A DNA stretch of 64,000 nucleotides from Candidatus Giovannonibacteria bacterium RIFCSPLOWO2_02_FULL_45_28 (lineage in GTDB: Bacteria; Patescibacteriota; Minisyncoccia; UBA11713; 2-01-FULL-45-33), in assembly GCA_001780725.1 (NCBI GenBank), contig MFIM01000009.1:656-64655 (forward strand). The letters run 5' to 3'. The notes beneath the pieces were generated by a model that did not search any database, had not been told where the DNA came from, and worked only from the letters and a program-made list of their open reading frames with translations. Both the position numbers and the translations under genes were made by a program. Every line of letters starts with the position of its first letter. Positions within the stretch are counted from its first letter, which is position 1. This document shows, in pieces, positions 8,371-23,535 of the stretch.

Positions 8371-8386
8371 GTGCTATTTTGAGTAT

Positions 8387-8855: not shown

Positions 8856-8859
8856 CGGT

Positions 8860-8879: not shown

Positions 8880-8890
8880 AGGGAGTTAAG

Positions 8891-9132: not shown

Positions 9133-9136
9133 ACTT

Positions 9137-9250: not shown

Positions 9251-9251
9251 C

Positions 9252-9638: not shown

Positions 9639-9648
9639 AGGAATTGGC

Positions 9649-9663
9649 CCACGCTCGGCGTGG
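9649..9663 (+). other. hairpin CCACGC-TCG-GCGTGG after rpsM
   Basis: 6-bp stem, 3-nt loop. The same motif class recurs after rpsI. Confidence 0.35.
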
Positions 9664-9820
9664 TTGCCAAACCTTTACCCGCCTAAATTTTTTATAACAA
9701 ATGTATTACAATAAACGATGATAAAACAAATAAACAATCAAACGAGATATATAATGCCCAGTAAAAAATTATGGCGGGTGCTCAATTTTATTAACTCGCT
9801 AAAGCTCGTATAAAATTGGC

Positions 9821-10255: not shown

Positions 10256-10860
10256 GAAGTATTGCAAATTGTAAAACTTGCAGGAGGCTTGGCATGTCCG
10301 TGTGCGGGCGCGAGAAATGCGCGTTTAAACGCAAGCCCTATCCGCCCGGGGTTCACGGTAAGGCATTTAGAAGAGGGCTGTCCGAATTCGGAGCCGAACT
10401 CAAAGACAAGCAGCGCGTTAAGTTTCTTTACGGCCTTCGTGAACGCCAATTTGAAAATTACGTTCTTTCCGCAATTGCGCAAAGCGCTATGCCGACCGAC
10501 GAAGCAATTGTTGCAAAATTAGAAATGCGTCTGGATAATGTTGTTTACCGTTTGGGGTTCGCAAAAACTCGGGCTGCGGCAAGGCAGTTGGTAAATCACG
10601 GCCACATTACAGTTAACGGCAAACGGGTTAATGCGCCATCATACCAAACAAAAATCGGAGATGAGATTCGTGTGAAGCAATCAAGCGCGCAAAAAGCCCT
10701 GTTTGCAGATTTAAGCACGACGTTAAAAAAATATTCTGCGCCGGCTTGGCTGGAATTAAATAAAACAGATTTTAGCGGCAAGGCGGTTGCGAGGCCGCCG
10801 GCGGGAGATTTTATTAAGTCTTATAATTTAAGTTCAATAGTCGAGTATTATTCGCGTTAA
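10252..10860 (+). CDS. rpsD: ribosomal protein S4
   Basis: RRLG..CGREKC..KRKPYPPGVHG and an S4 domain. Confidence 0.9.
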   Translation: MRSIANCKTCRRLGMSVCGREKCAFKRKPYPPGVHGKAFRRGLSEFGAELKDKQRVKFLYGLRERQFENYVLSAIAQSAMPTDEAIVAKLEMRLDNVVYRLGFAKTRAAARQLVNHGHITVNGKRVNAPSYQTKIGDEIRVKQSSAQKALFADLSTTLKKYSAPAWLELNKTDFSGKAVARPPAGDFIKSYNLSSIVEYYSR

Positions 10861-10877
10861 TTTTTTTAGAAATTTTT

Positions 10878-11780
10878 ATGGATTACGAAATTGTTTTGCC
10901 GTCGCACACCCGAGTTGTTTCTGAAGAGGAACAGAAGGGCACTTATGAAATAGACAGCCTTTATCCGGGCTACGGGCACACATTGGGCAATTCTTTGCGC
11001 CGCATTTTACTTTCTTCTTTGCCCGGCGCCGCGGTGACCAAAGTAAAAATAGAAGGGGCTAGCCACGAATTCACCACACTTCCAGGTATTTTGGAAGACG
11101 TGGTGACGATTTTGCTTAATATAAAACAACTGCGTTTTAAGCTTCACGGCGAAGGTCCTGAAACTGCCACACTGGAAGTCAAAGGCGCCAAAGAAGTGAG
11201 GGGTAAGGATATCAAATGCCCGACGCAACTGGAAGTGTTGAATAAAGATTTGCATATTGCGACACTGACAGAGAAAAATTCGCGTCTCTCAATAGAGTTT
11301 ACTGTTGAGCGTGGCATGGGCTTTGTGCCTTCCGAGGAGCTGATGAAAGACAAGGTGTCCGTGGGCGTGCTGGTGCTAGACGCGATATTTACGCCTATAA
11401 GGCGCGTAACTTACGAAATTGAGAACATGCGCGTCGGCGACCGAACCGACTATAACCGATTGAGGCTTTTTATTGAAACCGATGGCACGCTTTCTCCGCG
11501 GGAAGCCTTAAAATGCGCTTTGGCGGTTATGCGGAAACAAATTGAGCAGATTGAAACTTTTGAAGGCGAGATGGCTGCCATCGGTGCGGAGCAAACCGAA
11601 ACAAAAATGAAATTGTCAGCCAGAACAAGTAAGGCTTTGGCTGCCGCCGGCCTTAGCTCGCCGGAGGCGCTCGCCCAAAAATCGGAGGCAGAAATTAAAG
11701 AACTTGAAGGAATAGGCGATAAAGCGGTTTCTGAAATAAGGAAAGCGTTGGCGAAATTGGGATTAGCATTAAAAGAATAA
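10878..11780 (+). CDS. rpoA: DNA-directed RNA polymerase alpha subunit
   Basis: YGHTLGNSLRRILLSSLPGAAVTKVKIEGASHEFTTLPGILEDV. Confidence 0.9.
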   Translation: MDYEIVLPSHTRVVSEEEQKGTYEIDSLYPGYGHTLGNSLRRILLSSLPGAAVTKVKIEGASHEFTTLPGILEDVVTILLNIKQLRFKLHGEGPETATLEVKGAKEVRGKDIKCPTQLEVLNKDLHIATLTEKNSRLSIEFTVERGMGFVPSEELMKDKVSVGVLVLDAIFTPIRRVTYEIENMRVGDRTDYNRLRLFIETDGTLSPREALKCALAVMRKQIEQIETFEGEMAAIGAEQTETKMKLSARTSKALAAAGLSSPEALAQKSEAEIKELEGIGDKAVSEIRKALAKLGLALKE

Positions 11781-11790
11781 GCAACTGACT

Positions 11791-12129
11791 ATGGCGCGCA
11801 AATTCCACCGTGAAAAAAAACAAAGGCGGGCGCTGCTCAAAAGCCTTGCGGTGGCTTTGATAATGAAAGGCAAGATTAGAACTACGCTGGCGCGGGCTAA
11901 AGAACTCCGTAGCACTGTTGAAGGACTGGTGACGCATGTCAAAAGGCATGCTGCTCCTGGCGCAGAATACCGCGAAATCAGAAAATTTTTACCTAAAGCC
12001 GCAGCCGGAAAATTAGTAAAAGAAATAGCGCCTAAACATAAAGACAGGAACGGCGGATACACAAGGATTATTAAATTGCTCCCGCGCTCGGGAGACGCGG
12101 CGAAAATGGCTTTTATAGAGTTCGTATAA
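11791..12129 (+). CDS. rplQ: ribosomal protein L17
   Basis: Position after rpoA; basic, 112 aa, GGYTRIIKL. Confidence 0.9.
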   Translation: MARKFHREKKQRRALLKSLAVALIMKGKIRTTLARAKELRSTVEGLVTHVKRHAAPGAEYREIRKFLPKAAAGKLVKEIAPKHKDRNGGYTRIIKLLPRSGDAAKMAFIEFV

Positions 12130-12136
12130 AAAATTT

Positions 12137-12496
12137 ATGAGCAAAGACATAATGATTGACGCTAAAGGGAAAAGATTGGGAAGGATAGCTTCTGGGACGG
12201 CTTTTGCTTTGCGCGGAAAAACCAAAGCTGATTTTTTGCCGCATAACACTGTTTTGCCCAAAGTGGTTGTAAAAAACGCCGACGCAGTTGATTTTTCCGA
12301 AAAAAAGCTGAAAGAGAAAAAATTTTGGAGATATTCAGGTTATCCCGGCGGAATGAAGCTCAAAAGCGCGCATGAAGTTGCTCAAAAAGACAAACGCGAA
12401 GTTTTGCGCCGCGCCGTTTTGGGGATGTTGCCGCATAACCGCTTGAGAAAAATTATGATTAAAAATTTAATAATTTACCATGGCGAAGACAAATAA
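12137..12496 (+). CDS. rplM: ribosomal protein L13
   Basis: IDAKGKRLGRIAS.., 119 aa. Confidence 0.9.
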   Translation: MSKDIMIDAKGKRLGRIASGTAFALRGKTKADFLPHNTVLPKVVVKNADAVDFSEKKLKEKKFWRYSGYPGGMKLKSAHEVAQKDKREVLRRAVLGMLPHNRLRKIMIKNLIIYHGEDK

Positions 12497-12926
12497 GGAA
12501 AAACCCGCCCAGCCGCCAGCGAGGTATTTTGAAGCGGTCGGCCGCAGGAAAACTTCCGTTGCCCGCGTCAGGCTTTTTTCCGCAAAAGGCGGAAAGGAAA
12601 AAGAGCCAATTGATATCAATGTCAATAACAGGCCTCACACTTCTTATTTCCCGACTCCGACACTCAAAAAAATCGCAGAGGAAGCTTTGCGGGCCGCGCA
12701 CGCCGATGGCAGTTACCGGGTTTCCGCCAAAATTTCGGGCGGGGGAATCCATTCGCAGGCGGAAGCCATGCGCCATGGCATTTCCCGCGCGCTTTTAAAA
12801 ATTGATTCGGAGAACAGAAAAATTTTAAAACCGTTGGGATTCCTAAAACGCGATCCGCGAATGAAAGAACGCCGCAAATTCGGCCTCAAAAAAGCAAGAA
12901 AGGCCCCGCAATGGGCGAAACGCTAA
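12480..12926 (+). CDS. rpsI: ribosomal protein S9
   Basis: GRRKTSVARVRL.. and a C-terminal ..KKARKAPQWAKR. Overlaps rplM by 17 nt. Confidence 0.9.
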   Translation: MAKTNKEKPAQPPARYFEAVGRRKTSVARVRLFSAKGGKEKEPIDINVNNRPHTSYFPTPTLKKIAEEALRAAHADGSYRVSAKISGGGIHSQAEAMRHGISRALLKIDSENRKILKPLGFLKRDPRMKERRKFGLKKARKAPQWAKR

Positions 12927-12954
12927 GCGTTTCGATTGCCACGCTGAGCGTGGC
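12917..12954 (+). other. tandem small hairpins after rpsI (CGAAACGC-TAA-GCGTTTCG and GCCACGC-TGA-GCGTGGC)
   Basis: Read directly. The second matches the CCACGC-N3-GCGTGG motif after rpsM. No T-run follows. Confidence 0.35.
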
Positions 12955-13020
12955 GAAGAGATAGCTCTTGACACGGCAACCTTTAATATGCTATCTCTGA
13001 TTTAGAGGAGGTGAAAAAAT

Positions 13021-13206
13021 ATGTCAAACCCGGTTGATAGAGTCGCGGCGGCAATTTCTAAGGTATGCCGCCAAAAAGAGAAAGAGGCGGAGAGGATGTC
13101 GCAGGCCAACGAACCTGTGAACATTGTGGACGGAAGTTATTTTAAAAAGCTTGAAGCAGAGCTTCAGCTTGCATGCCGCACAGCTCTTGAGCACGAAAAG
13201 GAGTAA
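13021..13206 (+). CDS. hypothetical small protein
   Basis: Strong GAGGAGG RBS; 61 aa. Confidence 0.45.
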   Translation: MSNPVDRVAAAISKVCRQKEKEAERMSQANEPVNIVDGSYFKKLEAELQLACRTALEHEKE

Positions 13207-13208
13207 AA

Positions 13209-13619
13209 ATGGCTGATTGGAGAGATGGAATAACTTTTCCGATGCCAAGAATCTACGTTCCAGACGAAGATTTTATCGGCAAAAAAGTTACATTGCGCAG
13301 ATGTGAATTTCATGATCATTTGGATCCGGCGGAGGGGTACACCAGAGAAGAAGTCAGTTTGACTGGGAATTGCAATTGCGAATTAAAAGGCAAGCCTCTG
13401 ACTATTACTGGAATGAAAGAAACGCTTCGTGCAAACTTTTATCACAGCACTTGCTATACAGTCGCGGAATCTCAAAACTTGGTTCACGAATTTGAATTTT
13501 CTGATGAAGATGAAAAGCCTGAAGTAATTACTGGATATATTATTGAAGGAGAGCCAAACAAATTTCTTACAGCAGGATTTAATTATGCCGAGAAAAAAGA
13601 TGTTGCCGAGGGCTGTTAA
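13209..13619 (+). CDS. hypothetical Cys/His-containing protein
   Basis: AAGGAG RBS and a 3-nt gap to the upstream ORF. CEFHDH..CNCELKG could bind metal. Terminator downstream. Confidence 0.5.
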   Translation: MADWRDGITFPMPRIYVPDEDFIGKKVTLRRCEFHDHLDPAEGYTREEVSLTGNCNCELKGKPLTITGMKETLRANFYHSTCYTVAESQNLVHEFEFSDEDEKPEVITGYIIEGEPNKFLTAGFNYAEKKDVAEGC

Positions 13620-13682
13620 CCTGGGAAGAGCTCCGAGAAAAAATTCTTATAAAGTAAAGCTGTAAAACCCGCCAAAACCAAA

Positions 13683-13710
13683 AGCGCCCGATTAGGGCGC
13701 TGTTTCGTTG
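13683..13710 (+). terminator. intrinsic terminator candidate
   Basis: AGCGCCC-GATT-AGGGCGCT stem followed by GTTTCGTTG. Confidence 0.45.
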
Positions 13711-13716
13711 CTAAAT

Positions 13717-13745
13717 TTGCAATAGAAACCGTTTAGGTGTTTATA
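13717..13745 (+). promoter_or_regulatory. sigma70-like promoter for hrcA (-35 TTGCAA, 17-nt spacer, -10 TTTATA)
   Basis: Boxes read directly. CIRCE starts 4 nt downstream of the -10. Confidence 0.5.
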
Positions 13746-13748
13746 GCG

Positions 13749-13775
13749 TTAGCAGTCTTGTATTGAGAGTGCTAA
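13749..13775 (+). promoter_or_regulatory. CIRCE operator (HrcA binding site)
   Basis: TTAGCAGTC-N9-GAGTGCTAA against the consensus TTAGCACTC-N9-GAGTGCTAA: one mismatch. Confidence 0.8.
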
Positions 13776-13803
13776 TTTGTTAAGATGGATATAATTCAAA
13801 TCA

Positions 13804-14541
13804 ATGCCACTTTTAGACAGCCGAAAAGAGGATATTTTGGGGTTTGTTGTGCGGGATTTTGTCCGGACGGCTTTTCCGGTTTCTTCCAATGCCGTGTTCG
13901 GAGGTTTGAGGCTGGAGGTAAGTCCGGCTACCATCCGTAATATTATGCTGGAGCTGGACGATATGGGATATCTTTACCAGCCGCACACTTCCGCGGGCCG
14001 CGCCCCCACGGAAAAAGGGTATCGCTACTTTACTCTGCATTTAATGTCTGTAAAACAGCCGGAAGTTGAAATGAGGACGCGGCTGGATAAAATTGTTGAG
14101 AATATGGAGCGGGAAACAGACTCGGCTTTTGAGGAGCTTTCGCGCGCGCTGTCCAGCCATCTTAAACTTTTTTCCGGAATTGGCCTTTTGGATGAAGATG
14201 AAAAAATTTTTGGGAAAGGGCTTTCCGAAGTTTTCCGCGCTCCGGAGTTCGCAGAGCCAAACTTGGCCGCGGAATTCGCAGATTTTGCGGAAAACATTGA
14301 AGAAAATTTGCTGGATTTAAACAGGCGCGGAGTAACAGAGCATGATCTTGAGCCGACTTTCCATGTTAGCGGTTTCGGGATGGCAAGCGTGTTTTTTGAC
14401 GATGACGAGTTTGGCAGATGCGCTGTTTTTTCAGCAGGACCCAAAAGGATGAATTACGAAAAATCTGCTTCCGTATTAAAATACACGGCAAAAGATATTA
14501 AGAGTAAAAATAAAAAAAATGCCAGACGAAGAAATAATTGA
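13804..14541 (+). CDS. hrcA: heat-inducible transcriptional repressor HrcA (short, 245 aa)
   Basis: N-terminal wHTH ..SPATIRNIMLELDDMGYLYQPHTSAGRAPTEKGYRYF. Confidence 0.8.
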   Translation: MPLLDSRKEDILGFVVRDFVRTAFPVSSNAVFGGLRLEVSPATIRNIMLELDDMGYLYQPHTSAGRAPTEKGYRYFTLHLMSVKQPEVEMRTRLDKIVENMERETDSAFEELSRALSSHLKLFSGIGLLDEDEKIFGKGLSEVFRAPEFAEPNLAAEFADFAENIEENLLDLNRRGVTEHDLEPTFHVSGFGMASVFFDDDEFGRCAVFSAGPKRMNYEKSASVLKYTAKDIKSKNKKNARRRNN

Positions 14542-15028
14542 AAACGAAGTTGTAGAAGAGGAGGGGCTGGGCGATAAATTAAAAAAGTTGCGCGAAGAAT
14601 TAAAACTTTGCCACAAAGAAAAATCGGAGTATCTAGCGGGCTGGCAGAGGGCGAAGGCGGATTTTATAAACGCAAGAAAAGACGAAGAAAAAGCCAGAGC
14701 AGAATTCGCCAAATTTGCCGCGGAGAAAGTTTTAGGGGAGATGCTGGCTGTAGCTGATTCGCTGCTTGCCCGCCACAGCTTTAGCGAAGGCGGGGAGGAT
14801 CCGATTTACAATCAATTGCTTGATATTTTTAAAAAAGAAGGCGTTGAGCCGATTGAGGCGCTCGGTAAAGGGTTTGATCCGCTTTATCATGAAGCTTTAG
14901 AACAGGTTGAGGTTCCCCAAAAAGAAAAAGACGGGACGGTTTTGGAAGAGATGCAAAAAGGGTACACTATTTATAACAGGGTTCTGCGGCCAGCTAAAGT
15001 AAAAATCGGAATTTATAAAAATATATGA
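14519..15028 (+). CDS. grpE: nucleotide exchange factor GrpE
   Basis: RAKADFINARKD.., VLGEMLAVADSL, and a C-terminal beta domain. Confidence 0.85.
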   Translation: MPDEEIIENEVVEEEGLGDKLKKLREELKLCHKEKSEYLAGWQRAKADFINARKDEEKARAEFAKFAAEKVLGEMLAVADSLLARHSFSEGGEDPIYNQLLDIFKKEGVEPIEALGKGFDPLYHEALEQVEVPQKEKDGTVLEEMQKGYTIYNRVLRPAKVKIGIYKNI

Positions 15029-16095
15029 ATAAAGAGGAAACAACTAAATATATTCCGGAAGAATCAGAATCAAAAATAAATGTTGATTTTGACGCGCTTA
15101 TTGCGGAATGCGACAGATTGCGAAGCGTGCCCAAAATGTCGCCGAAAGAAATTCATTATGTCTTGAAACAATATGAAAAAATCAATTCCGAATCAGTGGA
15201 CACCGCATTTGAAGCGGACAAAAAATTACTTTCTTTAGTGGTGGATAGGATAGCAAAAGAATGCGGAGAGACAGGATCTTTGTCTATTTATGATAACGCA
15301 ATTCAGCTTATAACCAAAAAATCCATTAAGAAGTTTGAAGAAATATTTGCGGAAAGCCCTCTTACGTCTGCAGTGTTTTTCCCTACTATGGGCGCCATTG
15401 GCTTCAGAGGGGCGGATGCCATGCGGTTACACAATCCAGGCTATTTGATTTACTCATTGGCGTCTTTTGGATCAGTCACGCAATTACAAAGTTTGCATCA
15501 CGAGTTTATTCATAGCAAACAAAGTTTTTTGCCCGAAGAAGAGGCGCTAATAGCTTTAAAAAATGACTTAAACGAATCGTGTTGGCATATTGCATATTAT
15601 GTGTCTCGAGCTTTATTGGGCTTAGGCCAAACAAAAGCCCAAAGAGGAATCGGGCGATTGAAAGAAAAGATTGCCGCAAAAGAAGAATTGGCGGAAACAC
15701 ATGCGTATATAGGAACTGCCAGACGAGATAATTTACAACTTTCATTTTCTGATTTTTTGAGAGACATGCAAACCGGCTACAGCTTCGGCGGGGAACCGAA
15801 AGAGATTGACCGGCTCATTTTAGCCAATTTTGAAGTAAAACGCCTTTATGCGCTTGGTCTTTCTGATGAGGAAATCGGCTTGCTGGTTCGCGACGCCAAG
15901 TGGGATTATAAAAAGAGGCGCTACGATATTTTAGATGAAAAAGCCGCGCAGATTATGAAAGAAAAGGATTTGGACGAGGAAGATGTTGACAACTTGGTTT
16001 TGGCAGACGACCTAAGGCGGCAAATTTTTATAAACAAAACGCAACTTATCGCGCAAGATGAATTAAAAAAGGCCGTAAAAAACTTGCAAAAATAA
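15025..16095 (+). CDS. hypothetical HExxH-motif protein (putative zinc metallopeptidase) embedded in the chaperone operon
   Basis: ATGA overlap with the grpE stop. LHHEFIHSKQ is an HExxH motif, with further Glu residues downstream. Confidence 0.5.
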   Translation: MNKEETTKYIPEESESKINVDFDALIAECDRLRSVPKMSPKEIHYVLKQYEKINSESVDTAFEADKKLLSLVVDRIAKECGETGSLSIYDNAIQLITKKSIKKFEEIFAESPLTSAVFFPTMGAIGFRGADAMRLHNPGYLIYSLASFGSVTQLQSLHHEFIHSKQSFLPEEEALIALKNDLNESCWHIAYYVSRALLGLGQTKAQRGIGRLKEKIAAKEELAETHAYIGTARRDNLQLSFSDFLRDMQTGYSFGGEPKEIDRLILANFEVKRLYALGLSDEEIGLLVRDAKWDYKKRRYDILDEKAAQIMKEKDLDEEDVDNLVLADDLRRQIFINKTQLIAQDELKKAVKNLQK

Positions 16096-16131
16096 TTATT
16101 AAATTATTAAAAAATTAATTAAAACAAAACT

Positions 16132-18012
16132 ATGAGTAAAATTTTAGGAATAGACTTGGGGACGACTAACTCGGCGATGGCGATTGTTGAGGGGGGTGTC
16201 CCGAAAATATTGGAAAACGCGGAAGGGGCGCGGACAACGCCTTCAATTGTGGCGTTTTCAAAATCGGGAGAAAGATTGGTCGGGCTTTTGGCGAAAAGGC
16301 AGGCGGTGACCAATCCCAGAAACACTATTTTTTCGGTAAAACGCTTAATCGGAAGGAAAGCGAGCGATGCGGAAGTGAAACGCGACAAAACCTTGCTCCC
16401 TTATGAGATTAAGGAATCCGCTAACGGCGGGGTGGAGGTTAAGATCAATGAAAAGTGGTACCGGCCGGAAGAGGTCTCCGCAATGATTTTGGCTAAATTA
16501 AAAGCGGACGCGGAGGCGAAACTCGGAGAAAAAATTGAAGATGCAATAATTACCGTGCCGGCTTATTTTGACGATTCGCAGAGACAAGCGACTAAGGCGG
16601 CCGGCGAGATTGCCGGGTTTAAAGTAAAAAGAATTTTAAACGAGCCGACCGCGGCTGCGCTGGCTTACGGCCTCAATAAAAAGCGGAACGAAAAAATCGT
16701 GGTTTATGATTTTGGCGGCGGGACTTTTGATCTGTCTGTTTTGGAGATCGGTGACGATACAATAGAAGTCCGCGCAACCGGCGGAGACACTCATTTGGGC
16801 GGGGATGATTTTGACCAAAAAATAATCCAGCATATCGCCGCGGAATTTAAAAAAGAATCGGGCATTGACGTAACTAAAGATGTTTTGGCGCTTCAGAGGC
16901 TGAAAGAGGCCGCGGAAAAAGCCAAGCATGAACTTTCAACCGCAATTGAGACGGAAATAAACATCCCATTTATCACATCCGACGCCTCCGGGCCGGTGCA
17001 TCTTCAGCAGAAAATGGCGAGAGCCAAACTGGAGGATTTGGTGCGCGACTTTTTGGATAAATCTTTTGAGATTACAAAAAATGTCGTTCGGGAAGCGAAA
17101 TTTGAACTAAAAGACATTGATGAAATTGTGTTGGTGGGCGGACAGACAAGGATGCCCGCAATTCAGGAAGGAATTAAAAAACTTTTTGGCAAGGAAGCTA
17201 ACCTTTCCATTAACCCGGACGAAGTTGTTGCTGTTGGAGCGGCGGTTCAGGGTGGAATTTTGCAAGGGGACGTAAAAGACGTTTTGCTTTTGGACGTGAC
17301 CCCTCTTTCTTTGGGAATTGAAACCTTGGGAGGCGTTATGACAAAAATTATTGAAAAAAATACGACGGTGCCGGTTGCGCGTTCGCAGGTTTTTTCAACT
17401 GCGGCTGACAACCAAACCTCGGTTGAAATCCATGTTTTGCAGGGCGAGCGCGAGATGGCTGGCGACAACAAAACTCTGGGACGGTTCATTTTGGACGGAA
17501 TCCCGCCTTCTCCGAGGGGTATGCCGCAAGTTGAGGTATCTTTTGACATTGACGCCAACGGCATTTTATCGGTGAAAGCTAAGGACAAAGCCACAAACAA
17601 AGAGCAGTCCATCCGCATAGAGGCCTCCACGGGGCTTTCTAAAGACGAAATTGAAAAAATGAAGAGAGACGCCGAGGCGCATGCGGACGAAGATCGCCAG
17701 AAAAAAGAGCTGATTGAATCCAAAAATCGCGCGGATGCGCTGGTTTATACAGCGGAGAAATCTTTGCGAGACGCGGGGGACAAAGTTGAACAGGCGATAA
17801 AAGACGAAGTTAATCAAAAAATAGAAGCGCTTAAAAAAGCGAAAGAGGGAAACGATATTTCCGAAATCCGCAACGCCGAAACCGCTTTGGCACAATCCCT
17901 CTCAAAGATAGGAGAAGCGATGTATAAGCAGGGCGGCGCGCAAGGCGAAAAACCCGAAGAAAAAGGCCCGGACATTAAAGATGCCGATTTTAAGGAGGAG
18001 GGCGATAAGTAA
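16132..18012 (+). CDS. dnaK: molecular chaperone DnaK (Hsp70)
   Basis: [25 protein letters not shown], and a C-terminal EEVD-like acidic tail. Confidence 0.95.
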
Positions 18013-18015
18013 ATT

Positions 18016-18588
18016 ATGAAACGAGTTTTTATAGTTCATGGTTGGGATGGCTATCCGGAAGAGGGATGGTTTCCGTGGCTTAAAAAAGAACTTGAGTCGA
18101 AAAACTTTAAGGTTTTTGTTCCGCAACTTCCTGATTCCGCAAATCCGAGGATTGAGAAATGGGTTCCAGCTCTTGCGGGCACCGTTGGTGTTGCGGATGA
18201 GCAGACCTGTTTTGTTGGGCATAGTATTGGTTGCCAAACCATCGCTCGATATCTAGAAACCTTGTCTGAAGGACAAAAAGTTGGGGGCGCGGTGTTTGTT
18301 GCTGGTTTTTTTGAGCGAGTGAATCTTGAAGAAGATTTTAATGTGCAAGAAACTAGCCGCTTATGGCTTAAAGCGCCGCTTGATTTTAGTAAAGTGAAAT
18401 CGCATTTACCAAAAAGTATTGCCATTTTTTCTGATAATGATCCGTATGTTCCGCTCGATAACCAAAATGATTTTCGAGAAAAATTAGGTTCGGAGATTAT
18501 TGTAGAGAAATCAAAGGGTCATTTTAGCGGCCCGAGCGACGGCATTACTAAATTGCCAGTTGTTTTAGAATCTGTTTTGAAATTATGA
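18016..18588 (+). CDS. alpha/beta hydrolase, YdeN/RBBP9-like serine hydrolase
   Basis: GHSIG nucleophile elbow (CFVGHSIGC); 190 aa. Wedged between dnaK and dnaJ with 3-4-nt junctions. Confidence 0.55.
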
Positions 18589-19661
18589 AAGACTATTACG
18601 AAATTTTGGGGGTGGGGAAAAATGCGTCTCAAGACGAGATTAAGCGCGCGTACAGAAAGTTGGCGCATGAGCATCACCCCGATAAAAAAGGGGGGGATGA
18701 GAAAAAGTTTAAGGAGATAAACGAGGCTTATCAGATTTTGGGAGACGAGCAAAAACGCCAGCAGTATGATAGGTTTGGCAAGACTTTTGCCGGAGGCGGC
18801 CAATCCGGCTTTTCCGGATTTGAAGGCTTTGACTTTTCAAATTTTGGAGGTGGGTTTAACGCGGACCTAGGCGATATCTTCGAAGATTTTCTTGGCGGGC
18901 TTGGCGGATTTTCCGCCCGAGGCGGACAAGGGCGCAGGCGCGAACGGGGCAGCGATATTTCTTTGGGTATTGACGCATCGTTTCAGGAATCCGTTTTCGG
19001 CGGGAGACGGAGCGTTGTTATTGAAAAAACTTCAAAATGTGAGATCTGCGGCGGCAACGGCGCAGAACCCGGAACTAATCTGAAAAAGTGTGCGACTTGC
19101 CAAGGCACAGGTACCGTCCGCGAGATGCGGCGTTCGCTTTTCGGAGCGTTTACAGCGCTTTCGGAATGTTCTCATTGCCGCGGCAGGGGAGAATCACCGG
19201 AACGCGCATGCAAACATTGCCGCGGAGCCGGGATTTTAAGAAAATCCCAAGGCGTGGAAATTATGATTCCTCCGGGCATTCGCGACGGAGAAGCAATCAA
19301 ACTTACAGGTTTAGGAGAAGAAGTTCAAAGAGGACAAGCAGGAGATCTTTATGTTAGGATTCACGTTTTACCGCATCATATTTTCAGGCGCGAGGGGTAC
19401 GATATTTTGATGGATTTGCATCTGCCGCTTTCAAAAATGCTTTTGGGCGGAGAAGAAATGATAGAAACACTGGAAGGAAAAATTTCGGTGCGTATTCCGG
19501 AGCTTTCCAAAGTGGGAGATTTTCTGCGTCTTCGCGGAAAGGGGGTTCCAAGGGGCAGGGGAAGAGGGGATTTGTTAATAAGGCTTTTTCCCAAGCTTCC
19601 CAAAAAGCTCACGCCGCGGGCAAAAGAAATACTTTCGGATTTGGAGAAAGAGGGGTTATAA
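18585..19661 (+). CDS. dnaJ: co-chaperone DnaJ
   Basis: J-domain with HPD (HHPDKK), a G/F region, and four CxxCxGxG zinc-finger repeats. Confidence 0.9.
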
Positions 19662-20158: not shown

Positions 20159-20246
20159 CGCACGAATGTCGGCACTAGCTAGTTTTGCGGCCCAAATAGA
20201 AAATAAAAACAAAATCTGCCGGCTCCGATTCCCGCTGAAGTTCTCT

Positions 20247-20348
20247 TTATTGGCGCTTGTTTTTGGAGATTATGGTAGGCAAAGCCATCAGAACAATGGT
20301 CAAAGCAATGATAGCCCCGATAAGATAAATGATGAGCATGCTATTCAT
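20247..20348 (-). CDS. possible 33-aa hydrophobic peptide (MNSMLIIYLIGAIIALTIVLMALPTIISKNKRQ)
   Basis: Single TM-like peptide. No clear RBS. Confidence 0.2.
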   Translation of the reverse strand: MNSMLIIYLIGAIIALTIVLMALPTIISKNKRQ

Positions 20349-20470
20349 ACTTATATTTTAGCTGATAACCAACCGTGCTTCAGATAATTTTAATCCCATA
20401 GAATTTTATTCTAGCGCCTTGCTAACAACAGTCAAATAAATAGCCTCTCGCGCGTGTGGATAAACCCGTT

Positions 20471-20480
20471 GGGGGGGGGG
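20471..20480 (+). repeat. G10 homopolymer spanning the -35/spacer of the promoter of the 20503 gene
   Basis: gggggggggg read directly. Sits inside TTGGGG(-35-like)..17 nt..TGATACAAT. Confidence 0.85.
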
Positions 20481-20487
20481 CGTTATA

Positions 20488-20496
20488 TGATACAAT
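20488..20496 (+). promoter_or_regulatory. extended -10 (TGATACAAT) 6 nt upstream of the ATG; leaderless transcript likely
   Basis: Read directly. No Shine-Dalgarno sequence before the ATG at 20503. Confidence 0.45.
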
Positions 20497-20502
20497 GAAT
20501 TT

Positions 20503-22869
20503 ATGGTGAATTTTCGGATAAAATTAGCTTTGTTTTTAGTGATTTTCCTCTCTCTCTCTCTCGCACAGGCCAATGCCGCTTTTGACTTTTCTTTTGCCAA
20601 TCTTTCTCAATCCAACTCTCTTGCCTCCGTATGGGAAAATGTAAAAGACGACATACAAGACTCATGGGAAAACATAAAAGAGTGGCTACTTCCCGCTCCG
20701 CCGCCCCCATCAACCCCGCCAGGCGAGCAAAAACCGTCGCCCTCATCAACGCGCGGGAAAACATCCAATGTTGAATCCCCAAAAACATCGGATGTTGAGG
20801 AGCGCGTTTTCCCGGGCAACGATTTCGAAGAAGAAAGCAAGACAATCACATCTGAACAACCTCTCGCAACCGAGCGCGCTCCGGAACGCGTCACAGTTTC
20901 CACTAACGGAATTACAGAAGCTCGTCTTTTGCAGTCGCTCAATGCCTTGCGCGAAGAGCTATTGGATCGCTTCTCGCAGATTATCGTCTCCGCGCCCGCG
21001 CCGCTTACATTTCATGGTCCTGCGGAAACAACGCCTGCTTCCGTCGCTATGCTGGCTTTATCCCAAAGAATCAACAACCTATCCGGCAGTTCCAATTCCC
21101 CGCTTACCATCTCCGGAGCAACTTTCTCCGGCTCCAATACTTTTAGCCTTACGGATGCCGATGTTCCCGACGGCATCACTGCTTCCAGCTATCTCCCGCT
21201 TTCCGGAGGCACGCTCTCGGGCGCGCTTACCGGAACCAATCTTACTCTCTCCGGCAACCTCACCGTTTCCGGAGCTCAAACTCTTTCCGGCGCCATCACT
21301 ATTCCCTATCTCACCGCGACCTCCACCACCCAGCCCTCCACTTTCGCCTACAACGTCGGCATCGGGACGACGAGTCCGTGGGGGTTATTATCAGTACATC
21401 CCGACGGGATTACCGGTCCCGCTTTTGTGGTCGGTTCATCAACTGCAACAAACTTTATCGTAACTAACGGCGGCAACGTCGGGATTGGGACGACGAGTCC
21501 GACGGCGCTATTGCATGTGGCGCATACCACCGATATTAGTAAAACCTTAATTAACGCAACTTATCTCGGTTTCTCCAAATTTAAGTTGAGATACGATGAG
21601 GGTTCTAATTACCACATTTTGGAAATCTTTAACAGCACGCTTGCTGGGTTTGGTATTACTCTTAATGCAACAGATTGGACCAGTCGCACTGTGACAATAC
21701 GGGGACATATTGATGCTTCGATACCGCTGACCGTTCAATCTAATGACAACACTCCATCACTTGACATTTTCCAGGTGCGCAGGAGTGGCACTCTAATAGA
21801 CCTTGTGGTTAATTCAAGCGGCTTTGTAGGCATAGGCACATCCACCCCAAATTGGCTCCTGCAGGCGGCTGGAACGCGTCCGTTTTTTACCCTCTCCGAC
21901 ACCGCGGCGGGAACGGATTTGAAACATTGGTATTTGTCATCTCAAGGCGGCAATCTGTATGTGGGCACCACCACCGATGCCTATGCCACCACCACCAATT
22001 ATCAAGCATTGACTATATTAAATAACGGCAACGTCGGCATCGGGACGACGAGTCCATGGCGCACCTTTTCGGTGGCGGGGACGGTGGGATTCTCTTCTAC
22101 CCTAACTTCTTCTGCAACGGGAGATTACCTTTGCATAAATACCGACACATACGAGGTCTCAAGAGGCGCGGGAAGCATCTGCACCACTTCTTCCGAAAGA
22201 TACAAAGAGAATTTTGAAGAACTCGCCTACGGACTGGATTCCGTACTCAAACTTCACCCAATCTCATTTGAATACAAGCCCGAGCTTAATATCGGCCCAG
22301 GCCGCAGAATCGGTTTCACTGCCGAGGAAGTGATTAATGTCATTCCCGAAGCGGTTGTGCTTGATAAAGAAGGTCTGCCCAGCGGGGTTGAATACGAAAA
22401 ACTAACCGCGGTTTTGGCAAAAGCCATACAGGAGCTTTACCAAAAAATTATCTCGCTTTTTGATAAAGACAAGGAGCAAGATCAGCGCATCGCTGAGCTT
22501 GAAGCGCGTATAAATGCTCTGGAGGGAGGAGCGCCGGCGGCGGATACCTCCGCCTCCGCCGAGGCTTCGGCGGACAAGGAACCCCCGACCATCACCATCA
22601 ACGGCAACAATCCCGCGAGAATAGAAGTCGGCGCGGCATACAGCGACCTTGGCGCAACCGTCACTGATAATGTCAATGACAATCTCGGTATTGAAATGTT
22701 TGTCGGAGAAACGCCCATGGAGCAGGCATATATTGATACGAGCGAACCGAATACTTACCACATCACTTACCGCGCAACCGATCAGGCGGGTAATGTCGGC
22801 GAGGCGGTGCGTACGGTGGAGGTGTATAGCCAAGCGACAACAACTTTATCCGAAATCCCGTCTCCGTAA
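20503..22869 (+). CDS. secreted tail-fibre-like surface protein with peptidase S74 intramolecular-chaperone domain and C-terminal Ig-like (DUF5011-like) domain
   Basis: Signal peptide MVNFRIKLALFLVIFLSLSLAQANA; Pro-rich linker; three-to-four GNVGIGTTSP repeats; SERYKENFEEL..LHPISFEYKP..GFTAEEVINVIPEAV..AIQELYQKI matches the intramolecular-chaperone domain; PPTITINGNNPARIEVGAAYSDLGATVTDNV..HITYRATDQAGN is Ig-like. Confidence 0.7.
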   Translation: MVNFRIKLALFLVIFLSLSLAQANAAFDFSFANLSQSNSLASVWENVKDDIQDSWENIKEWLLPAPPPPSTPPGEQKPSPSSTRGKTSNVESPKTSDVEERVFPGNDFEEESKTITSEQPLATERAPERVTVSTNGITEARLLQSLNALREELLDRFSQIIVSAPAPLTFHGPAETTPASVAMLALSQRINNLSGSSNSPLTISGATFSGSNTFSLTDADVPDGITASSYLPLSGGTLSGALTGTNLTLSGNLTVSGAQTLSGAITIPYLTATSTTQPSTFAYNVGIGTTSPWGLLSVHPDGITGPAFVVGSSTATNFIVTNGGNVGIGTTSPTALLHVAHTTDISKTLINATYLGFSKFKLRYDEGSNYHILEIFNSTLAGFGITLNATDWTSRTVTIRGHIDASIPLTVQSNDNTPSLDIFQVRRSGTLIDLVVNSSGFVGIGTSTPNWLLQAAGTRPFFTLSDTAAGTDLKHWYLSSQGGNLYVGTTTDAYATTTNYQALTILNNGNVGIGTTSPWRTFSVAGTVGFSSTLTSSATGDYLCINTDTYEVSRGAGSICTTSSERYKENFEELAYGLDSVLKLHPISFEYKPELNIGPGRRIGFTAEEVINVIPEAVVLDKEGLPSGVEYEKLTAVLAKAIQELYQKIISLFDKDKEQDQRIAELEARINALEGGAPAADTSASAEASADKEPPTITINGNNPARIEVGAAYSDLGATVTDNVNDNLGIEMFVGETPMEQAYIDTSEPNTYHITYRATDQAGNVGEAVRTVEVYSQATTTLSEIPSP
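20548..20562 (+). repeat. (CT)7 dinucleotide tract inside the signal-peptide coding region (encodes LSLSLS)
   Basis: cctctctctctctctc read directly. Confidence 0.8.
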
Positions 22870-22887
22870 AAAATTATTTTTCTATAA

Positions 22888-22969
22888 TCCGCCCACCAGG
22901 AATCGAACCTGGAACCTTCTCCTTTCCGCCAAAGGACGGATCAGCCTCCGGCTGAAAAAGGGAGCTGCT
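22888..22969 (-). pseudogene. tRNA-Lys-derived 3' fragment (D-stem 3' side to acceptor end) carrying a 31-nt insertion in the anticodon loop
   Basis: T-arm and acceptor identical to the intact copy exactly 100 bp downstream. Shares an identical 57-bp segment (22913..22969) with the 5' fragment at 23343..23399. Confidence 0.6.
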
Positions 22970-22987
22970 TATAGAAACAGCGCTTTC

Positions 22988-23060
22988 TCCGCCCACCAGG
23001 AATCGAACCTGGAACCTTCTCCTTAAAAGGGAGCTGCTCTGCCAATTGAGCTATGGGCGG
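22988..23060 (-). tRNA. tRNA-Lys (anticodon UUU)
   Basis: Folded by hand: 7-bp acceptor CCGCCCA/TGGGCGG, D-arm GCTC..GAGC, anticodon loop CTTTTAA, T-arm CCAGG-TTCGATT-CCTGG, discriminator A. No encoded CCA. Confidence 0.85.
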
Positions 23061-23083
23061 AGGAAGCGCTGTGCTTCCACTAC

Positions 23084-23329
23084 TTAGCTTTTTAATATTT
23101 CATCCAAAAACTTTCTGCCAACGCCGGATTTCAAAAAATTTTCACGCTTTCGAGCATTCGTCTTATCGGCACAACTTTCTTGATACACCAACTCAAACGG
23201 CCCGTTTCTTCTCGTGAATTTATTGGAACCATAGTTGTGTTTCTTTAACCTTTCCCCTGGCAATAAATCTGTGCTTCCTACATAACGCTTACCATTTTTT
23301 AAACTTTTTAATACATATATGTACGACAT
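23084..23329 (-). CDS. GIY-YIG nuclease-domain protein (YazA/YhbQ-like, 81 aa)
   Basis: YIYVLKSLKNGKRYVGSTDLLPGERLKKHN...GPFELVY.E is the GIY-YIG pattern. Confidence 0.7.
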   Translation of the reverse strand: MSYIYVLKSLKNGKRYVGSTDLLPGERLKKHNYGSNKFTRRNGPFELVYQESCADKTNARKRENFLKSGVGRKFLDEILKS

Positions 23330-23342
23330 ATTTTCTTAGCGT

Positions 23343-23434
23343 AACCTTCTCCTTTCCGCCAAAGGACGGATCAGCCTCCGGCTGAAAAAGGGAGCTGCTC
23401 TGCCTCCGCCAGCCGGCGGATGAGCTATGGGCGG
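23343..23434 (-). pseudogene. tRNA-Lys-derived 5' fragment (acceptor to variable loop) with a 17-nt hairpin insertion in the D-loop and a 31-nt insertion in the anticodon loop
   Basis: Reverse complement CCGCCCATAGCTCA[TCCGCCGGCTGGCGGAG]GCAGAGCAGCTCCCTTTT[TCAGCC..GGCGGA]AAGGAGAAGGTT aligns to the intact tRNA-Lys apart from the bracketed inserts. Confidence 0.6.
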
Positions 23435-23535
23435 ATGATTTATTTTAACCCTTTTGGCTAATTTGGGCAAGCTTTGCGTTTTCCGTGCGCACTGGTATAC
23501 GCTTGAGGTAGAGAACCTATTAAAATGAGGTTAAA

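What the first reader, a model, noticed from the sequence alone, without database searches (positions are those of the whole stretch)
20503..22869. Tail-fibre-like secreted protein with an internal S74 intramolecular-chaperone domain followed by an extra Ig-like domain
The protein combines several parts. It has a Sec signal peptide and a Pro-rich linker. It has three to four GNVGIGTTSP-type repeats, encoded by roughly 30-nt DNA repeats at about 21353, 21478 and 22033. It has a clear peptidase-S74 endosialidase-chaperone-like segment (SERYKENFEEL...AIQELYQKI). It also has a C-terminal DUF5011-like Ig domain. In phage tail spikes the S74 domain is C-terminal and self-cleaves, so placing an Ig domain after it is unusual. 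In a putatively episymbiotic small-genome bacterium this may be a host-attachment fibre rather than a prophage remnant. No other phage genes are nearby.
Basis: partly seen in the sequence, partly recalled or inferred. Interest (0 to 1): 0.7.

Follow-up and report, generated by a model that had tools for sequence, protein, structure and literature searches.

The report
Secreted fibre with internal S74 chaperone
An ultra-small groundwater bacterium (Candidatus Giovannonibacteria) carries an acquired gene for an exported fibre resembling a phage tail fibre, in which the self-cleaving folding domain is followed by an extra Ig-like domain; none of 92 sampled viral relatives has this layout, but it is routine in this bacterial group.

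Summary
ORF 20503-22869 (+) encodes 788 aa with these parts:
- a Sec-type signal peptide and a Pro-rich linker
- four GNVGIGTTSP-type motifs, three of them on near-identical 26-nt DNA repeats
- a Peptidase_S74 domain (44.8 bits, cut-off 22) with an invariant S563-x4-K568 dyad
- a C-terminal PF16403 (formerly DUF5011) Ig domain (48 bits, cut-off 27)

The 64-kb window is housekeeping DNA of Ca. Giovannonibacteria and holds no phage structural genes. Two related Giovannonibacteria genomes lack the gene. It is a compositionally atypical insertion next to tRNA-Lys, which is flanked by tRNA fragments and a GIY-YIG gene.

"S74 followed by more protein" is not unique. After the S74 core, the median is 179 aa in 25 Patescibacteria proteins, 30 aa in 69 other cellular proteins and 12 aa (maximum 34) in 92 viral ORFs.

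Most likely this is an exported trimeric adhesive fibre. S74 probably folds it and self-cleaves, removing a conserved S74-helix-Ig cassette. Trimerisation, cleavage and host binding are all inferred. I rate it a new variant of a known kind, of moderate interest.

The parts
20469..20496 (+). Putative promoter: TTGGGG (-35-like), a G10 homopolymer (20471-20480) and TACAAT (-10-like, 6 nt before the ATG). No Shine-Dalgarno sequence, so the mRNA may be leaderless.
   Evidence: Sequence read. G10 is the longest homopolymer in the 64-kb window. Not called by the consensus scan. Speculative.
20503..22869 (+). Fibre gene, 788 aa plus stop codon.
   Evidence: The exact protein is NCBI OGF49718.1 and others.
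20503..20571 (+). Sec-type signal peptide, aa 1-23 (cleavage after AQA or ANA).
   Evidence: Sequence, hydrophobicity 2.79, helix 2-23 in the model. Heuristic only.
20614..20751 (+). W-rich amphipathic helix (aa 38-62, on an 18-nt DNA repeat) and Pro-rich linker (aa 63-83).
   Evidence: (repeat D5).
20836..21348 (+). Conserved N-module (aa 112-198, helix 139-162) and the 'ITASSYLPLSGGTLSG' stalk (aa 199-282).
   Evidence: The N-module is shared with 16 of the top 120 homologues; the stalk segment gave 47 matches (one homologue matched twice). A2 consensus.
21349..22137 (+). Fibre shaft with four capping-loop motifs G-x-VGIGT-x-x-P-x-x-L-L (aa 283, 324, 440, 509). Three are on 26-nt DNA repeats at 21352, 21475 and 22030.
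   Evidence: Aligns to Bdellovibrio Bd2133 (8OND, E 4.3e-6, aa 312-532). Foldseek top hits are 8OND, 8ONC and 8OML. The motif is defined in PMC10769870.
22132..22182 (+). Cys544 and Cys560, just upstream of the cleavage site.
   Evidence: C560 is found in 64 of 81 residue-bearing rows. Both Cys are invariant in A3. A disulfide is inferred.
22189..22527 (+). S74 intramolecular chaperone / self-cleaving domain (aa 563-675): nucleophile S563 (22189-22191), K568 (22204-22206), GFTAEEV motif, long C-terminal helix 631-675.
22528..22578 (+). Ala/Ser/Asp-rich flexible linker (aa 676-692).
   Evidence: Low pLDDT at 679-684.
22579..22836 (+). C-terminal Ig-like domain, PF16403 / DUF5011 (aa 693-778).
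22880..22990 (-). Pseudo-tRNA-Lys copy A: the 3' two-thirds of the tRNA with a 31-nt insert in the anticodon loop, starting 19 nt after the fibre stop codon.
22987..23061 (-). Intact tRNA-Lys(UUU). The fibre gene lies on its 3' side.
   Evidence: The same tRNA sits directly after the TM-protein gene in relatives that lack the fibre gene.
23084..23445 (-). GIY-YIG nuclease ORF (23084-23329) and pseudo-tRNA-Lys copy B (23335-23445: the 5' two-thirds of the tRNA with the same 31-nt insert).
   Evidence: Absent from relatives.

Best explanation
The gene encodes an exported, cell-surface, homotrimeric fibre of the phage-tail-fibre / Bdellovibrio 'MAT' kind, made by a Candidatus Giovannonibacteria (Patescibacteria/CPR) cell.

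Proposed sequence of events:
1. Sec export and removal of the signal peptide.
2. The N-terminal part (amphipathic helix, Pro-rich spacer, conserved module aa 112-198) stays proximal to the cell.
3. The three S74 domains (aa 563-675) associate. They template the folding of the preceding triple beta-helix, whose edges are closed by the four GNVGIGTTSP capping loops.
4. The Ser563/Lys568 dyad then cuts the chain before S563.
5. A 226-aa C-terminal cassette (S74 + helix + linker + Ig domain) is released or held only non-covalently. This exposes the last capping-loop turn as the distal end of a mature fibre of about 540 aa per chain.
6. The fibre then binds a surface structure of another cell, presumably the host of this presumed episymbiont.

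The Ig domain is read as part of a conserved, removable S74-Ig maturation cassette, not as the specificity-determining tip. The gene itself is an accessory gene that arrived by insertion next to tRNA-Lys.

Shown: the domain content, the invariant dyad, the S74 and Ig folds, similarity to MAT fibres, the non-phage context, and the insertion status. Inferred: trimerisation, cleavage, orientation on the cell, and host binding.
For: - **Domains and dyad:**
- **Shaft:** the best PDB sequence and fold matches are the Bdellovibrio MAT fibres Bd2133, Bd3182 and Bd1334. In those, S74 self-cleavage at the SDxxxK serine and surface display were demonstrated, and the same capping-loop motif was defined (PMC10769870).
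- **Export:** a signal peptide is present. N-terminal hydrophobic segments occur in 72% of non-CPR cellular S74 ORFs but in 7% of viral ones.
- **Not a virion part:** no phage structural genes in 64 kb. Post-S74 extensions are absent from 92 viral ORFs (maximum 34 aa) but typical of Patescibacteria (median 179 aa against 30 aa elsewhere, p = 7e-11).
- **Cassette idea:** S74-linker-Ig follows unrelated mature parts (FG-GAP, discoidin, SGNH hydrolase), always with the S-x4-K dyad.
- **Orientation:** one homologue has PG_binding_1 directly after its signal peptide. Two others have a pilin-type N_methyl N-terminus.
- **Stable expressed-looking gene:** it is identical in the three loci whose DNA was compared (24 contigs carry the neighbouring TM gene). 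Nine cluster members differ by 0-5 aa.
- **Accessory status:** the gene is absent at the syntenic site of two related genomes. GC is 51% against a 44% mean, and third-position GC skew is z = -3.5.
Against: - No trimer model, no cleavage data and no expression data.
- The monomer AlphaFold model of the shaft is poor (pLDDT below 50 over much of aa 160-560).
- A well-conserved Ig domain is odd for something that is merely discarded.
- No recognisable anchor (LPXTG, lipobox, SLH, PG-binding domain) is present in this particular protein, so retention on the cell is assumed.
- The N-terminal part does not resemble the beta-rich MAT anchor domain, and a search with it found nothing.
- An episymbiotic lifestyle for Giovannonibacteria is itself inferred from general knowledge of CPR.
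- The CPR versus non-CPR comparison is not corrected for phylogeny, and it relies on record titles and stop-to-stop ORFs.
Confidence: 0.55

Rival explanations
1. The fibre is the same, but S74 acts here mainly as a trimerisation module, or cleavage is incomplete or regulated. The C-terminal Ig domain stays attached, covalently or through the three-helix bundle, and is the distal ligand-binding tip. This would parallel the non-S74 tips (beta-sandwich, TNF-like, C-type lectin) of Bdellovibrio MAT fibres.
For: The Ig domain is strongly conserved and confidently folded. It resembles Ig modules of adhesins and glycan-binding surface proteins such as SraP, Rib, SusCD-associated BT2262 and Big_3. MAT fibres do carry independently folding tip domains. 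In MyRF, sequence continues after the ICA domain and has a function (established knowledge; 7DC3 hit).
Against: Ser563 and Lys568 are invariant in every S74-Ig homologue examined, which argues that proteolysis is retained. The Ig module is constant while the upstream parts vary, the opposite of what is expected for a specificity tip. In many Patescibacteria homologues the extension is only a helix, a Cys motif and a Pro/Thr/Glu-rich tail with no Ig.
Confidence: 0.2
2. A remnant of a prophage or other integrated element. On this reading it is a former phage tail-fibre gene left beside the tRNA-Lys attachment site, with no cellular role.
For: PHROG tail-fibre hits. The gene abuts the 3' side of tRNA-Lys, with partial tRNA duplications typical of integration sites. 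It is absent from related genomes. Its composition is foreign. Homologues sit among transposases or ICE-like genes.
Against: It has a signal peptide, which is rare in viral S74 ORFs (7%). It has a post-S74 extension never seen in 92 viral ORFs. There is no integrase, capsid, terminase, portal or tail gene in 64 kb. The 2.4-kb ORF is intact and near-identical across nine cluster members (0-5 aa differences). The architecture is widespread in Patescibacteria chromosomes.
Confidence: 0.07
3. A mating or contact adhesin that works with the Patescibacteria type IV secretion (conjugation-like) machinery. It would play the role that PrgB-type adhesins play in monoderm conjugation, rather than being a general host-attachment fibre.
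For: The S74-Ig homologue P0012 lies between VirD4/TrwB-like ATPases, a Replic_Relax relaxase, DUF3768 and HTH_17. P0032 is next to DUF3768 and transposases. The window itself has a TrwB/HerA-like ATPase at 57542-59965. A survey of CPR T4SS reported that no PrgB-type adhesin could be found (bioRxiv 10.1101/2025.01.22.634366).
Against: In this window the ATPase is 35 kb away, with housekeeping genes in between. P0024 and the window locus have no T4SS neighbours. Only one clear ICE-like context was seen.
Confidence: 0.1

Closest known systems
Bdellovibrio bacteriovorus MAT (mosaic adhesive trimeric) fibres, S74 subgroup such as Bd3182, and Bd2133 (PDB 8ONC/8OJN, 8OND; PMC10769870)
   Same: Both are cellular, signal-peptide-bearing, roughly 600-1900-aa fibres. 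Both have a beta-helical shaft with the V-G-G/N-x-x-x-P-x-x-x-L capping loops. These are the best sequence and fold matches in the PDB. Both use S74 with the S-x4-K motif at the end of the shaft, have a mosaic design, and belong to bacteria that live on other bacteria.
   Different: MAT S74 members terminate in S74; here S74 is followed by a linker and an Ig domain. The conserved ~130-aa beta-rich N-terminal MAT domain is not evident (helices and a Pro-rich linker instead). The organism is a monoderm-type CPR bacterium, not a diderm predator. The MAT paper's list of MAT-like proteins in other organisms includes no Patescibacteria.
Phage tail spikes and fibres with a C-terminal intramolecular chaperone domain (endosialidase K1F/endoNF 3GW6, T5 L-shaped fibre pb1 4UW8/8HQZ, S16 gp37 6F45; Pfam PF13884)
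   Same: The S74 domain, the Ser-Lys dyad, the GF(I/T)A(E/Q)E motif, a preceding triple-beta-helix-type sequence, and PHROG tail-fibre hits.
   Different: Phage proteins lack signal peptides and end with S74: 92 viral ORFs have a median of 12 and a maximum of 34 aa after the core. They also sit in virion modules. This gene has a signal peptide, 138 aa after the core including an Ig domain, and housekeeping neighbours.
Eukaryotic myelin regulatory factor (MyRF) ICA domain (PDB 7DC3)
   Different: In MyRF the downstream part is a transmembrane anchor, and cleavage frees an N-terminal transcription factor. Here the protein is exported, and the downstream part is a soluble Ig domain.
PF16403 Bact_surface_Ig-like (DUF5011) modules of large bacterial surface proteins
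   Same: A hit above the Pfam cut-off. The fold matches Big_3, PKD and Rib-type Ig modules. A whole-library search with the C-terminal 232 aa (S74 core to the C-terminus) gave 36,199 representatives at E <= 1e-3, and the top hits are proteins with many such Ig repeats.
   Different: Here there is a single copy placed after a self-cleaving domain rather than in a tandem array.

Membership tests
Peptidase_S74 / intramolecular chaperone (CIMCD, ICA) domain | Match to the family HMM above the curated cut-off | tested here: met
   PF13884 at aa 563-618, 44.8 bits against 22.
Peptidase_S74 / intramolecular chaperone (CIMCD, ICA) domain | Catalytic Ser-x4-Lys dyad at the start of the domain | tested here: met
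   S563/K568 (SSERYK), in register with HMM position 1. Invariant in A2. Present in 90/90 and 91/91 rows.
Peptidase_S74 / intramolecular chaperone (CIMCD, ICA) domain | The characteristic fold | tested here: met
Peptidase_S74 / intramolecular chaperone (CIMCD, ICA) domain | Trimerisation-dependent autoproteolysis | not testable with these tools
   Needs a multimer model or biochemistry.
Phage tail fibre/spike with C-terminal chaperone (virion protein) | S74 is the C-terminal domain | tested here: not met
   138 aa, including an Ig domain, follow the S74 core. Viral ORFs have a maximum of 34 aa.
Phage tail fibre/spike with C-terminal chaperone (virion protein) | Encoded within a phage structural module; a cytoplasmic protein without a signal peptide | tested here: not met
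   No phage structural gene in 64 kb. A signal peptide is present.
Bdellovibrio-type MAT fibres | Signal peptide and a beta-helical shaft with V-G-G/N-x-x-x-P-x-x-x-L capping loops | tested here: met
   Four motifs. Alignment to Bd2133 at E 4.3e-6. Foldseek top hits are 8OND, 8ONC and 8OML.
Bdellovibrio-type MAT fibres | Conserved ~130-aa beta-rich N-terminal domain directly after the signal peptide | tested here: inconclusive
   The model shows helices 38-62 and 139-162 plus disorder, at low confidence. No MAT N-domain sequence was available for comparison. A search with the N-terminal part found nothing.
Bdellovibrio-type MAT fibres | C-terminus is either S74 or one alternative tip domain | tested here: not met
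   Both are present in series: S74, then Ig.
Bdellovibrio-type MAT fibres | Homotrimer displayed on the cell surface | not testable with these tools
   Only a monomer prediction was available.
PF16403 Bact_surface_Ig-like (DUF5011) | HMM match above the cut-off and an Ig-like beta-sandwich fold | tested here: met

The most novel reading that the evidence does not exclude
Patescibacteria, with scattered relatives elsewhere, possess a large and undescribed family of MAT-like contact fibres. In this family the S74 chaperone is embedded in a bigger removable C-terminal cassette: S74, a helix, a Cys motif and/or an Ig domain or Pro/Thr-rich tail. On this reading the cassette is more than a folding aid. 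It would also act as a cap or handle that masks the fibre tip, or guides the fibre through the wall and S-layer, until self-cleavage arms it. These fibres would travel on mobile elements (tRNA-site islets, ICE/T4SS-like regions, IS clusters) as swappable host-range determinants. Here one may additionally be switched by a promoter poly-G tract.
Probability: 0.25. Interest if true: 0.7.

Novelty: new variant of a known kind. Interest (0 to 1): 0.5.

Why it matters
How ultra-small CPR/Patescibacteria recognise and hold on to their host cells is largely open. Type IV pili are the only well-documented adhesion device in the literature I could search. No paper in the searched library connects S74 fibres to this group.

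The Bdellovibrio MAT work showed that phage-like S74 fibres serve a bacterium that attacks other bacteria. This locus and its many relatives suggest the same toolkit is widespread in episymbiotic lineages, with a systematic twist: S74 is not terminal.

That gives concrete experiments. Cleavage mutants, trimer structures and metaproteomic termini could test the cleavage model. A sequence signature (signal peptide + capping loops + S-x4-K + post-S74 extension) could be used to mine candidate host-range determinants from CPR genomes. If the Ig-bearing fragment has its own function, that would extend what S74 domains are known to do.

Tried and rejected
- **Alignments too large or too divergent:** the full 120-sequence alignment was too large for structure prediction. 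The 120- and 56-sequence alignments were both too divergent to seed locus searches. This was solved with an 8-sequence sub-alignment of aa 505-650.
- **N-terminal homologue search:** a search with aa 26-204 returned nothing, not even the protein itself. It says nothing about the anchor.
- **Whole-library search with the S74-to-Ig fragment:** it was swamped by giant multi-Ig proteins, so it could not count S74-Ig architectures. Poor query design on my part.
- **Paralogue in the window:** none.
- **Population hypervariability or a diversity-generating signal:** none. There are 0-5 aa differences among nine cluster members, and one T289L variant in a capping loop.
- **Poly-G or other homopolymer tracts upstream of homologous genes in Patescibacteria loci:** none, so phase variation is not a family trait.
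- **Consensus promoter/terminator scan:** nothing above the shuffle expectation.
- **Prophage hypothesis:** rejected as the main reading, for the reasons given under rivals.
- **Enzyme (depolymerase) reading of the shaft:** rejected. Region 312-532 aligns to the non-enzymatic Bd2133 shaft, and no catalytic family hit was found.
- **Rfam:** only the two tRNAs at gathering threshold.
- **Literature:** searches for CPR combined with S74 or tail-fibre terms found nothing relevant.
Full report
**1. The observation**

The ORF 20503-22869 (+) exists and encodes 788 aa.
- The N-terminus (MVNFRIKLALFLVIFLSLSLAQANA) has the charged, hydrophobic and AXA layout of a Sec signal peptide and no lipobox. I had no dedicated predictor.
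- The metagenome gene call starts 9 codons later at a TTG and removes the charged n-region, so I prefer the ATG.
- A Pro-rich linker covers aa 63-83.
- Four G-x-VGIGT-x-x-P motifs lie at aa 283, 324, 440 and 509. Three are encoded by a 26-nt repeat at 21352, 21475 and 22030 with 0, 2 and 0 mismatches; none is expected by chance.
- Pfam gives Peptidase_S74 at aa 563-618 (44.8 bits, cut-off 22) and Bact_surface_Ig-like PF16403 at aa 697-774 (48 bits, cut-off 27). One homologue that carries PF16403 is named DUF5011 by NCBI.
- PHROGs returns tail-fibre families down to E 1.3e-16.

**2. The S74 domain looks catalytically competent**

- S563 and K568 (SSERYK) sit in the S-x4-K register of the family model.
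- In a 56-sequence alignment S563, K568, G604 and A607 are invariant. Among S74-bearing homologues, Ser is found in 90/90 and Lys in 91/91 residue-bearing rows.
- Every S74-then-Ig homologue keeps the dyad.
- A monomer AlphaFold model is poor overall (mean pLDDT 62). It is confident for aa 571-650 (86-96), for a long helix at 631-675, and for the Ig domain (most blocks 91-97).
- A profile of aa 505-650 hits tail-fibre chaperone domains (8JOV, 6F45, 8HQZ) and MyRF. The MyRF hit includes its GRVGINTDRP loop immediately before the cleavage site.

**3. What the repeats are**

- The best sequence match in the PDB is the Bdellovibrio bacteriovorus fibre Bd2133 (8OND, E 4.3e-6, aligned over aa 312-532). 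Bd3182 follows.
- Foldseek ranks Bd2133, Bd3182 and Bd1334 first.
- The paper describing these 'MAT' (mosaic adhesive trimeric) fibres shows several things (PMC10769870). They are signal-peptide-bearing trimeric fibres displayed on the predator surface. Thirteen of 21 end in S74 with an SDxxxK motif. Bd3182 self-cleaves at the serine. The beta-helix edges are closed by capping loops with the consensus V-G-G/N-pi-x-x-P-x-x-x-L, a motif also found in MyRF.
- The GNVGIGTTSPxxLL repeats here fit that motif, so they are structural capping loops of a triple beta-helix rather than a new repeat.

**4. Organism and neighbourhood**

- The window's DnaK is 100% identical to that of Candidatus Giovannonibacteria bacterium RIFCSPLOWO2_12_FULL_44_25.
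- The exact 788-aa protein is in NCBI (OGF49718.1 and others, 'hypothetical protein') and in UniRef ('Peptidase S74 domain-containing protein').
- I scanned the 49 other ORFs of at least 150 aa with Pfam. They include ribosomal proteins, RpoA, HrcA/GrpE/DnaK/DnaJ, five aminoacyl-tRNA synthetases, MurG, FtsW, DnaB, RecR, RmuC, Def/Fmt, DnaX, ScpAB and a histidine kinase. There is no capsid, portal, terminase, tail or integrase gene.
- 24 contigs from several samples carry the neighbouring TM gene, and the three loci whose DNA was compared are identical apart from a 3-nt change. Nine cluster members differ by 0-5 aa.

**5. The gene is an insertion**

- Two related Giovannonibacteria genomes (DnaK 89-90% identical) keep the order GrpE-DnaK-DnaJ-TM protein-tRNA-Lys-...-histidine kinase-aaRS-ScpA-ScpB. 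Neither has a fibre gene: tRNA-Lys follows the TM-protein gene directly.
- In the window, about 2.8 kb carrying the fibre gene lies between the TM gene and the 3' side of tRNA-Lys.
- Nineteen nucleotides after the fibre stop codon there is a partial copy of tRNA-Lys (its 3' two-thirds). A second partial copy (the 5' two-thirds) lies beyond a small GIY-YIG gene on the other side of the intact tRNA. Both copies carry the same 31-nt insert in the anticodon loop.
- The fibre gene is compositionally atypical. GC is 51% against a mean of 44% (z 2.3). Coding-strand GC skew is -0.11 against +0.11 (z -3.8). Third-position skew has z -3.5.
- It is therefore an accessory gene, probably horizontally acquired, in an insertion hot spot. 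I could not reconstruct the event.

**6. How unusual is 'S74 then Ig'?**

| Set | n | aa after the S74 core (median) | Source |
|---|---|---|---|
| Viral contigs (IMG/VR) | 92 | 12 (maximum 34; none with a following Ig) | |
| Non-Patescibacteria cellular genomes | 69 | 30 | |
| Patescibacteria genomes | 25 | 179 | |
| Top-120 homologues that carry S74 | 91 | 162 | |

- Against phages the layout is unusual.
- Against this protein's own family it is common. Of the top 120 homologues, 47 have S74 followed by Ig, 44 have S74 without this Ig, and none in that set has Ig before S74.
- The Patescibacteria versus other-cellular difference gives Mann-Whitney p = 7e-11. This is not phylogenetically corrected, and the classes come from record titles.
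- The Patescibacteria extensions typically contain a helix, often an 'ELCVxDxxCVTKxQLxALL' Cys motif, and then either one or two DUF5011 Ig domains or a Pro/Thr/Glu-rich tail. This protein lacks the Cys motif.
- The architecture is not strictly confined to CPR. Three Methylocystis proteins have it.
- The broader capping-loop + S74 family also occurs in Bacteroidota, Bdellovibrionota, Leptospiraceae, Omnitrophota and some DPANN archaea.

**7. Cellular fibre or phage part?**

- A crude N-terminal hydrophobicity test separates the sets. It is positive in 7% of 71 viral S74 ORFs, 72% of 64 non-CPR cellular ones, and 44% of 16 Patescibacteria ones (start codons there are uncertain).
- The window protein passes clearly.
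- Together with the missing phage context and the post-S74 extension, this argues for an exported cellular protein.

**8. Mosaic design and orientation**

Pfam scans of six homologues show:

| Homologue | Parts upstream of S74 | After S74 |
|---|---|---|
| P0053 | PG_binding_1 directly after the signal peptide | Ig |
| P0063 | pilin-type N_methyl N-terminus | no further domain hit (S74 at 680-730 of 774 aa) |
| P0004 | SGNH hydrolase | Ig |
| P0026 | discoidin | Ig |
| P0059 | FG-GAP repeats | Ig |
| P0027 | pectate-lyase-like helix | no further domain hit (S74 at 989-1042 of 1101 aa) |

The variable, plausibly ligand-binding or enzymatic modules lie upstream of S74, in what would be the mature chain. 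S74-linker-Ig recurs as a constant C-terminal unit. The N-terminal wall- or membrane-associated modules in some members suggest that the N-terminus is proximal to the cell.

**9. Mechanism, with status of each step**

| Step | Status |
|---|---|
| Export by Sec | Inferred from sequence |
| Trimerisation and S74-templated folding of the capping-loop beta-helix | Inferred from homology to endosialidase, T5 pb1, MyRF and Bd3182 |
| Self-cleavage before S563 | Inferred from the invariant dyad |
| Loss or non-covalent retention of the 226-aa S74-helix-Ig fragment | Inferred; the main uncertainty |
| Adhesion to another cell's surface | Inferred from the MAT analogy and the presumed episymbiotic biology of CPR |

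I put about 0.8 on 'exported trimeric fibre', about 0.55 on 'cleaves and sheds the Ig cassette', and about 0.5 on 'host attachment'.

Rivals:
- The Ig stays on as the tip (0.2).
- A conjugation/T4SS-associated contact adhesin (0.1). This is prompted by homologue P0012, which sits among VirD4-like, relaxase and DUF3768 genes, and by a report that no PrgB-type adhesin is detectable in CPR T4SS loci.
- A decayed prophage gene (0.07).

**10. Comparison and novelty**

- The protein works like a MAT or tail-fibre S74 protein and passes the S74 and PF16403 membership tests.
- It fails the 'S74 is terminal' feature of phage fibres and of MAT S74 members. The MAT N-terminal anchor domain is not evident.
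- The known precedent for an internal S74/ICA domain is eukaryotic MyRF, where the downstream part is a membrane anchor.
- I found no paper linking S74 fibres to Patescibacteria. The MAT paper's table of MAT-like proteins in other organisms lists predators and Omnitrophica but no CPR.
- I therefore class it as a new variant of a known kind. The individual protein is already deposited and auto-annotated, and the architecture is common in its clade. The family and its post-S74 cassette appear undescribed, and they are relevant to how CPR cells contact hosts.
- Interest: 0.5.

Noticed in passing
window 20471-20480: A G10 homopolymer lies 23 nt upstream of the fibre ATG, between a TTGGGG and a TACAAT that ends 6 nt before the ATG (no Shine-Dalgarno sequence, so the mRNA may be leaderless). 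It is the longest homopolymer in the 64-kb window, and only four G/C runs of 7 or more exist. It is a candidate slipped-strand phase-variation tract for a surface-protein gene. However, its length is the same in four assemblies, and no such tract occurs upstream of homologues.
   Followed up: partly
window 22880-23445 (- strand): The intact tRNA-Lys(UUU) (22987-23061) and an 81-aa GIY-YIG ORF (23084-23329) are bracketed by two partial tRNA-Lys copies. Copy B holds the 5' two-thirds and copy A the 3' two-thirds. They overlap in the anticodon arm and share an identical 31-nt insert after the anticodon; copy B also has a 16-nt insert in the D loop. It looks like an insert-bearing tRNA gene split by a [GIY-YIG + intact tRNA] cassette. 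Relatives have only the single tRNA. Unexplained.
   Followed up: partly
window 20159-22986 compared with L165 13480-13644 and L167 13413-13577: Related Giovannonibacteria lack the fibre gene. They have instead a ~44-aa very basic ORF on the minus strand between the TM-protein gene and tRNA-Lys. The slot after the tRNA is also variable: a CsgG/LpoB-like lipoprotein in one relative, and TraT-like + ThiF + nitroreductase-like genes in another.
   Followed up: partly
window 15025-16095 and 18016-18588: The heat-shock cluster carries two extra genes that are absent from the relatives' GrpE-DnaK-DnaJ run. One is a 356-aa ORF without any Pfam hit between grpE and dnaK. The other is a Ser_hydrolase (PF06821) between dnaK and dnaJ.
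   Followed up: no
L170 (homologue P0012) 1-19411; window 57542-59965: An S74-Ig homologue sits inside an ICE/T4SS-like region: two VirD4/TrwB-like ATPases, a Replic_Relax relaxase, DUF3768, Peptidase_C93 and HTH_17. Another homologue (L169, P0032) lies among IS110/ISL3/rve transposases and DUF3768. The window itself has a TrwB/HerA-like 807-aa ATPase. There may be a link between these fibres and the CPR conjugation-like machinery.
   Followed up: partly
L004, L005, L007, L009, L013, L019, L034, L038, L060, L062, L063, L075 (C-terminal extensions): Many Patescibacteria homologues carry a conserved two-Cys motif, about 'ELCVxDxxCVTKxQLxALL', some 60-100 aa after S74. An Ig domain or a long Pro/Thr/Glu-rich tail follows it. 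The window protein lacks this motif. Its function is unknown.
   Followed up: no
P0063, P0067 (homologues): Two 'tail fiber domain-containing' Patescibacteria proteins combine a type IV pilin-like N-terminal methylation motif (KRGFTLIE; PF07963) with a C-terminal S74 fibre. This suggests fibres mounted on or processed like pilins.
   Followed up: partly
L039, L046, L069: Capping-loop + S74 fibre relatives occur in DPANN archaea (Woesearchaeota, Aenigmatarchaeota; one ORF exceeds 3,500 aa), with S74 terminal. Like the Patescibacteria, Bdellovibrionota and Omnitrophota that also carry such fibres, these are lineages that live on other cells.
   Followed up: no
window 21366-21368 (L164): The only polymorphism seen across the three loci whose DNA was compared is a 3-nt change that turns T289 into L. 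It lies inside the first capping-loop motif (GIGTT to GIGLT).
   Followed up: yes
window 3294-3863 (-), 5897-8370 (+): A PaaX_M/Cas2-like protein lies near two adjacent ORFs (395 and 430 aa) with no Pfam hit. The same trio (PaaX_M, 389 aa, 436 aa) is conserved upstream of the ribosomal-protein cluster in the related Giovannonibacteria loci.
   Followed up: no
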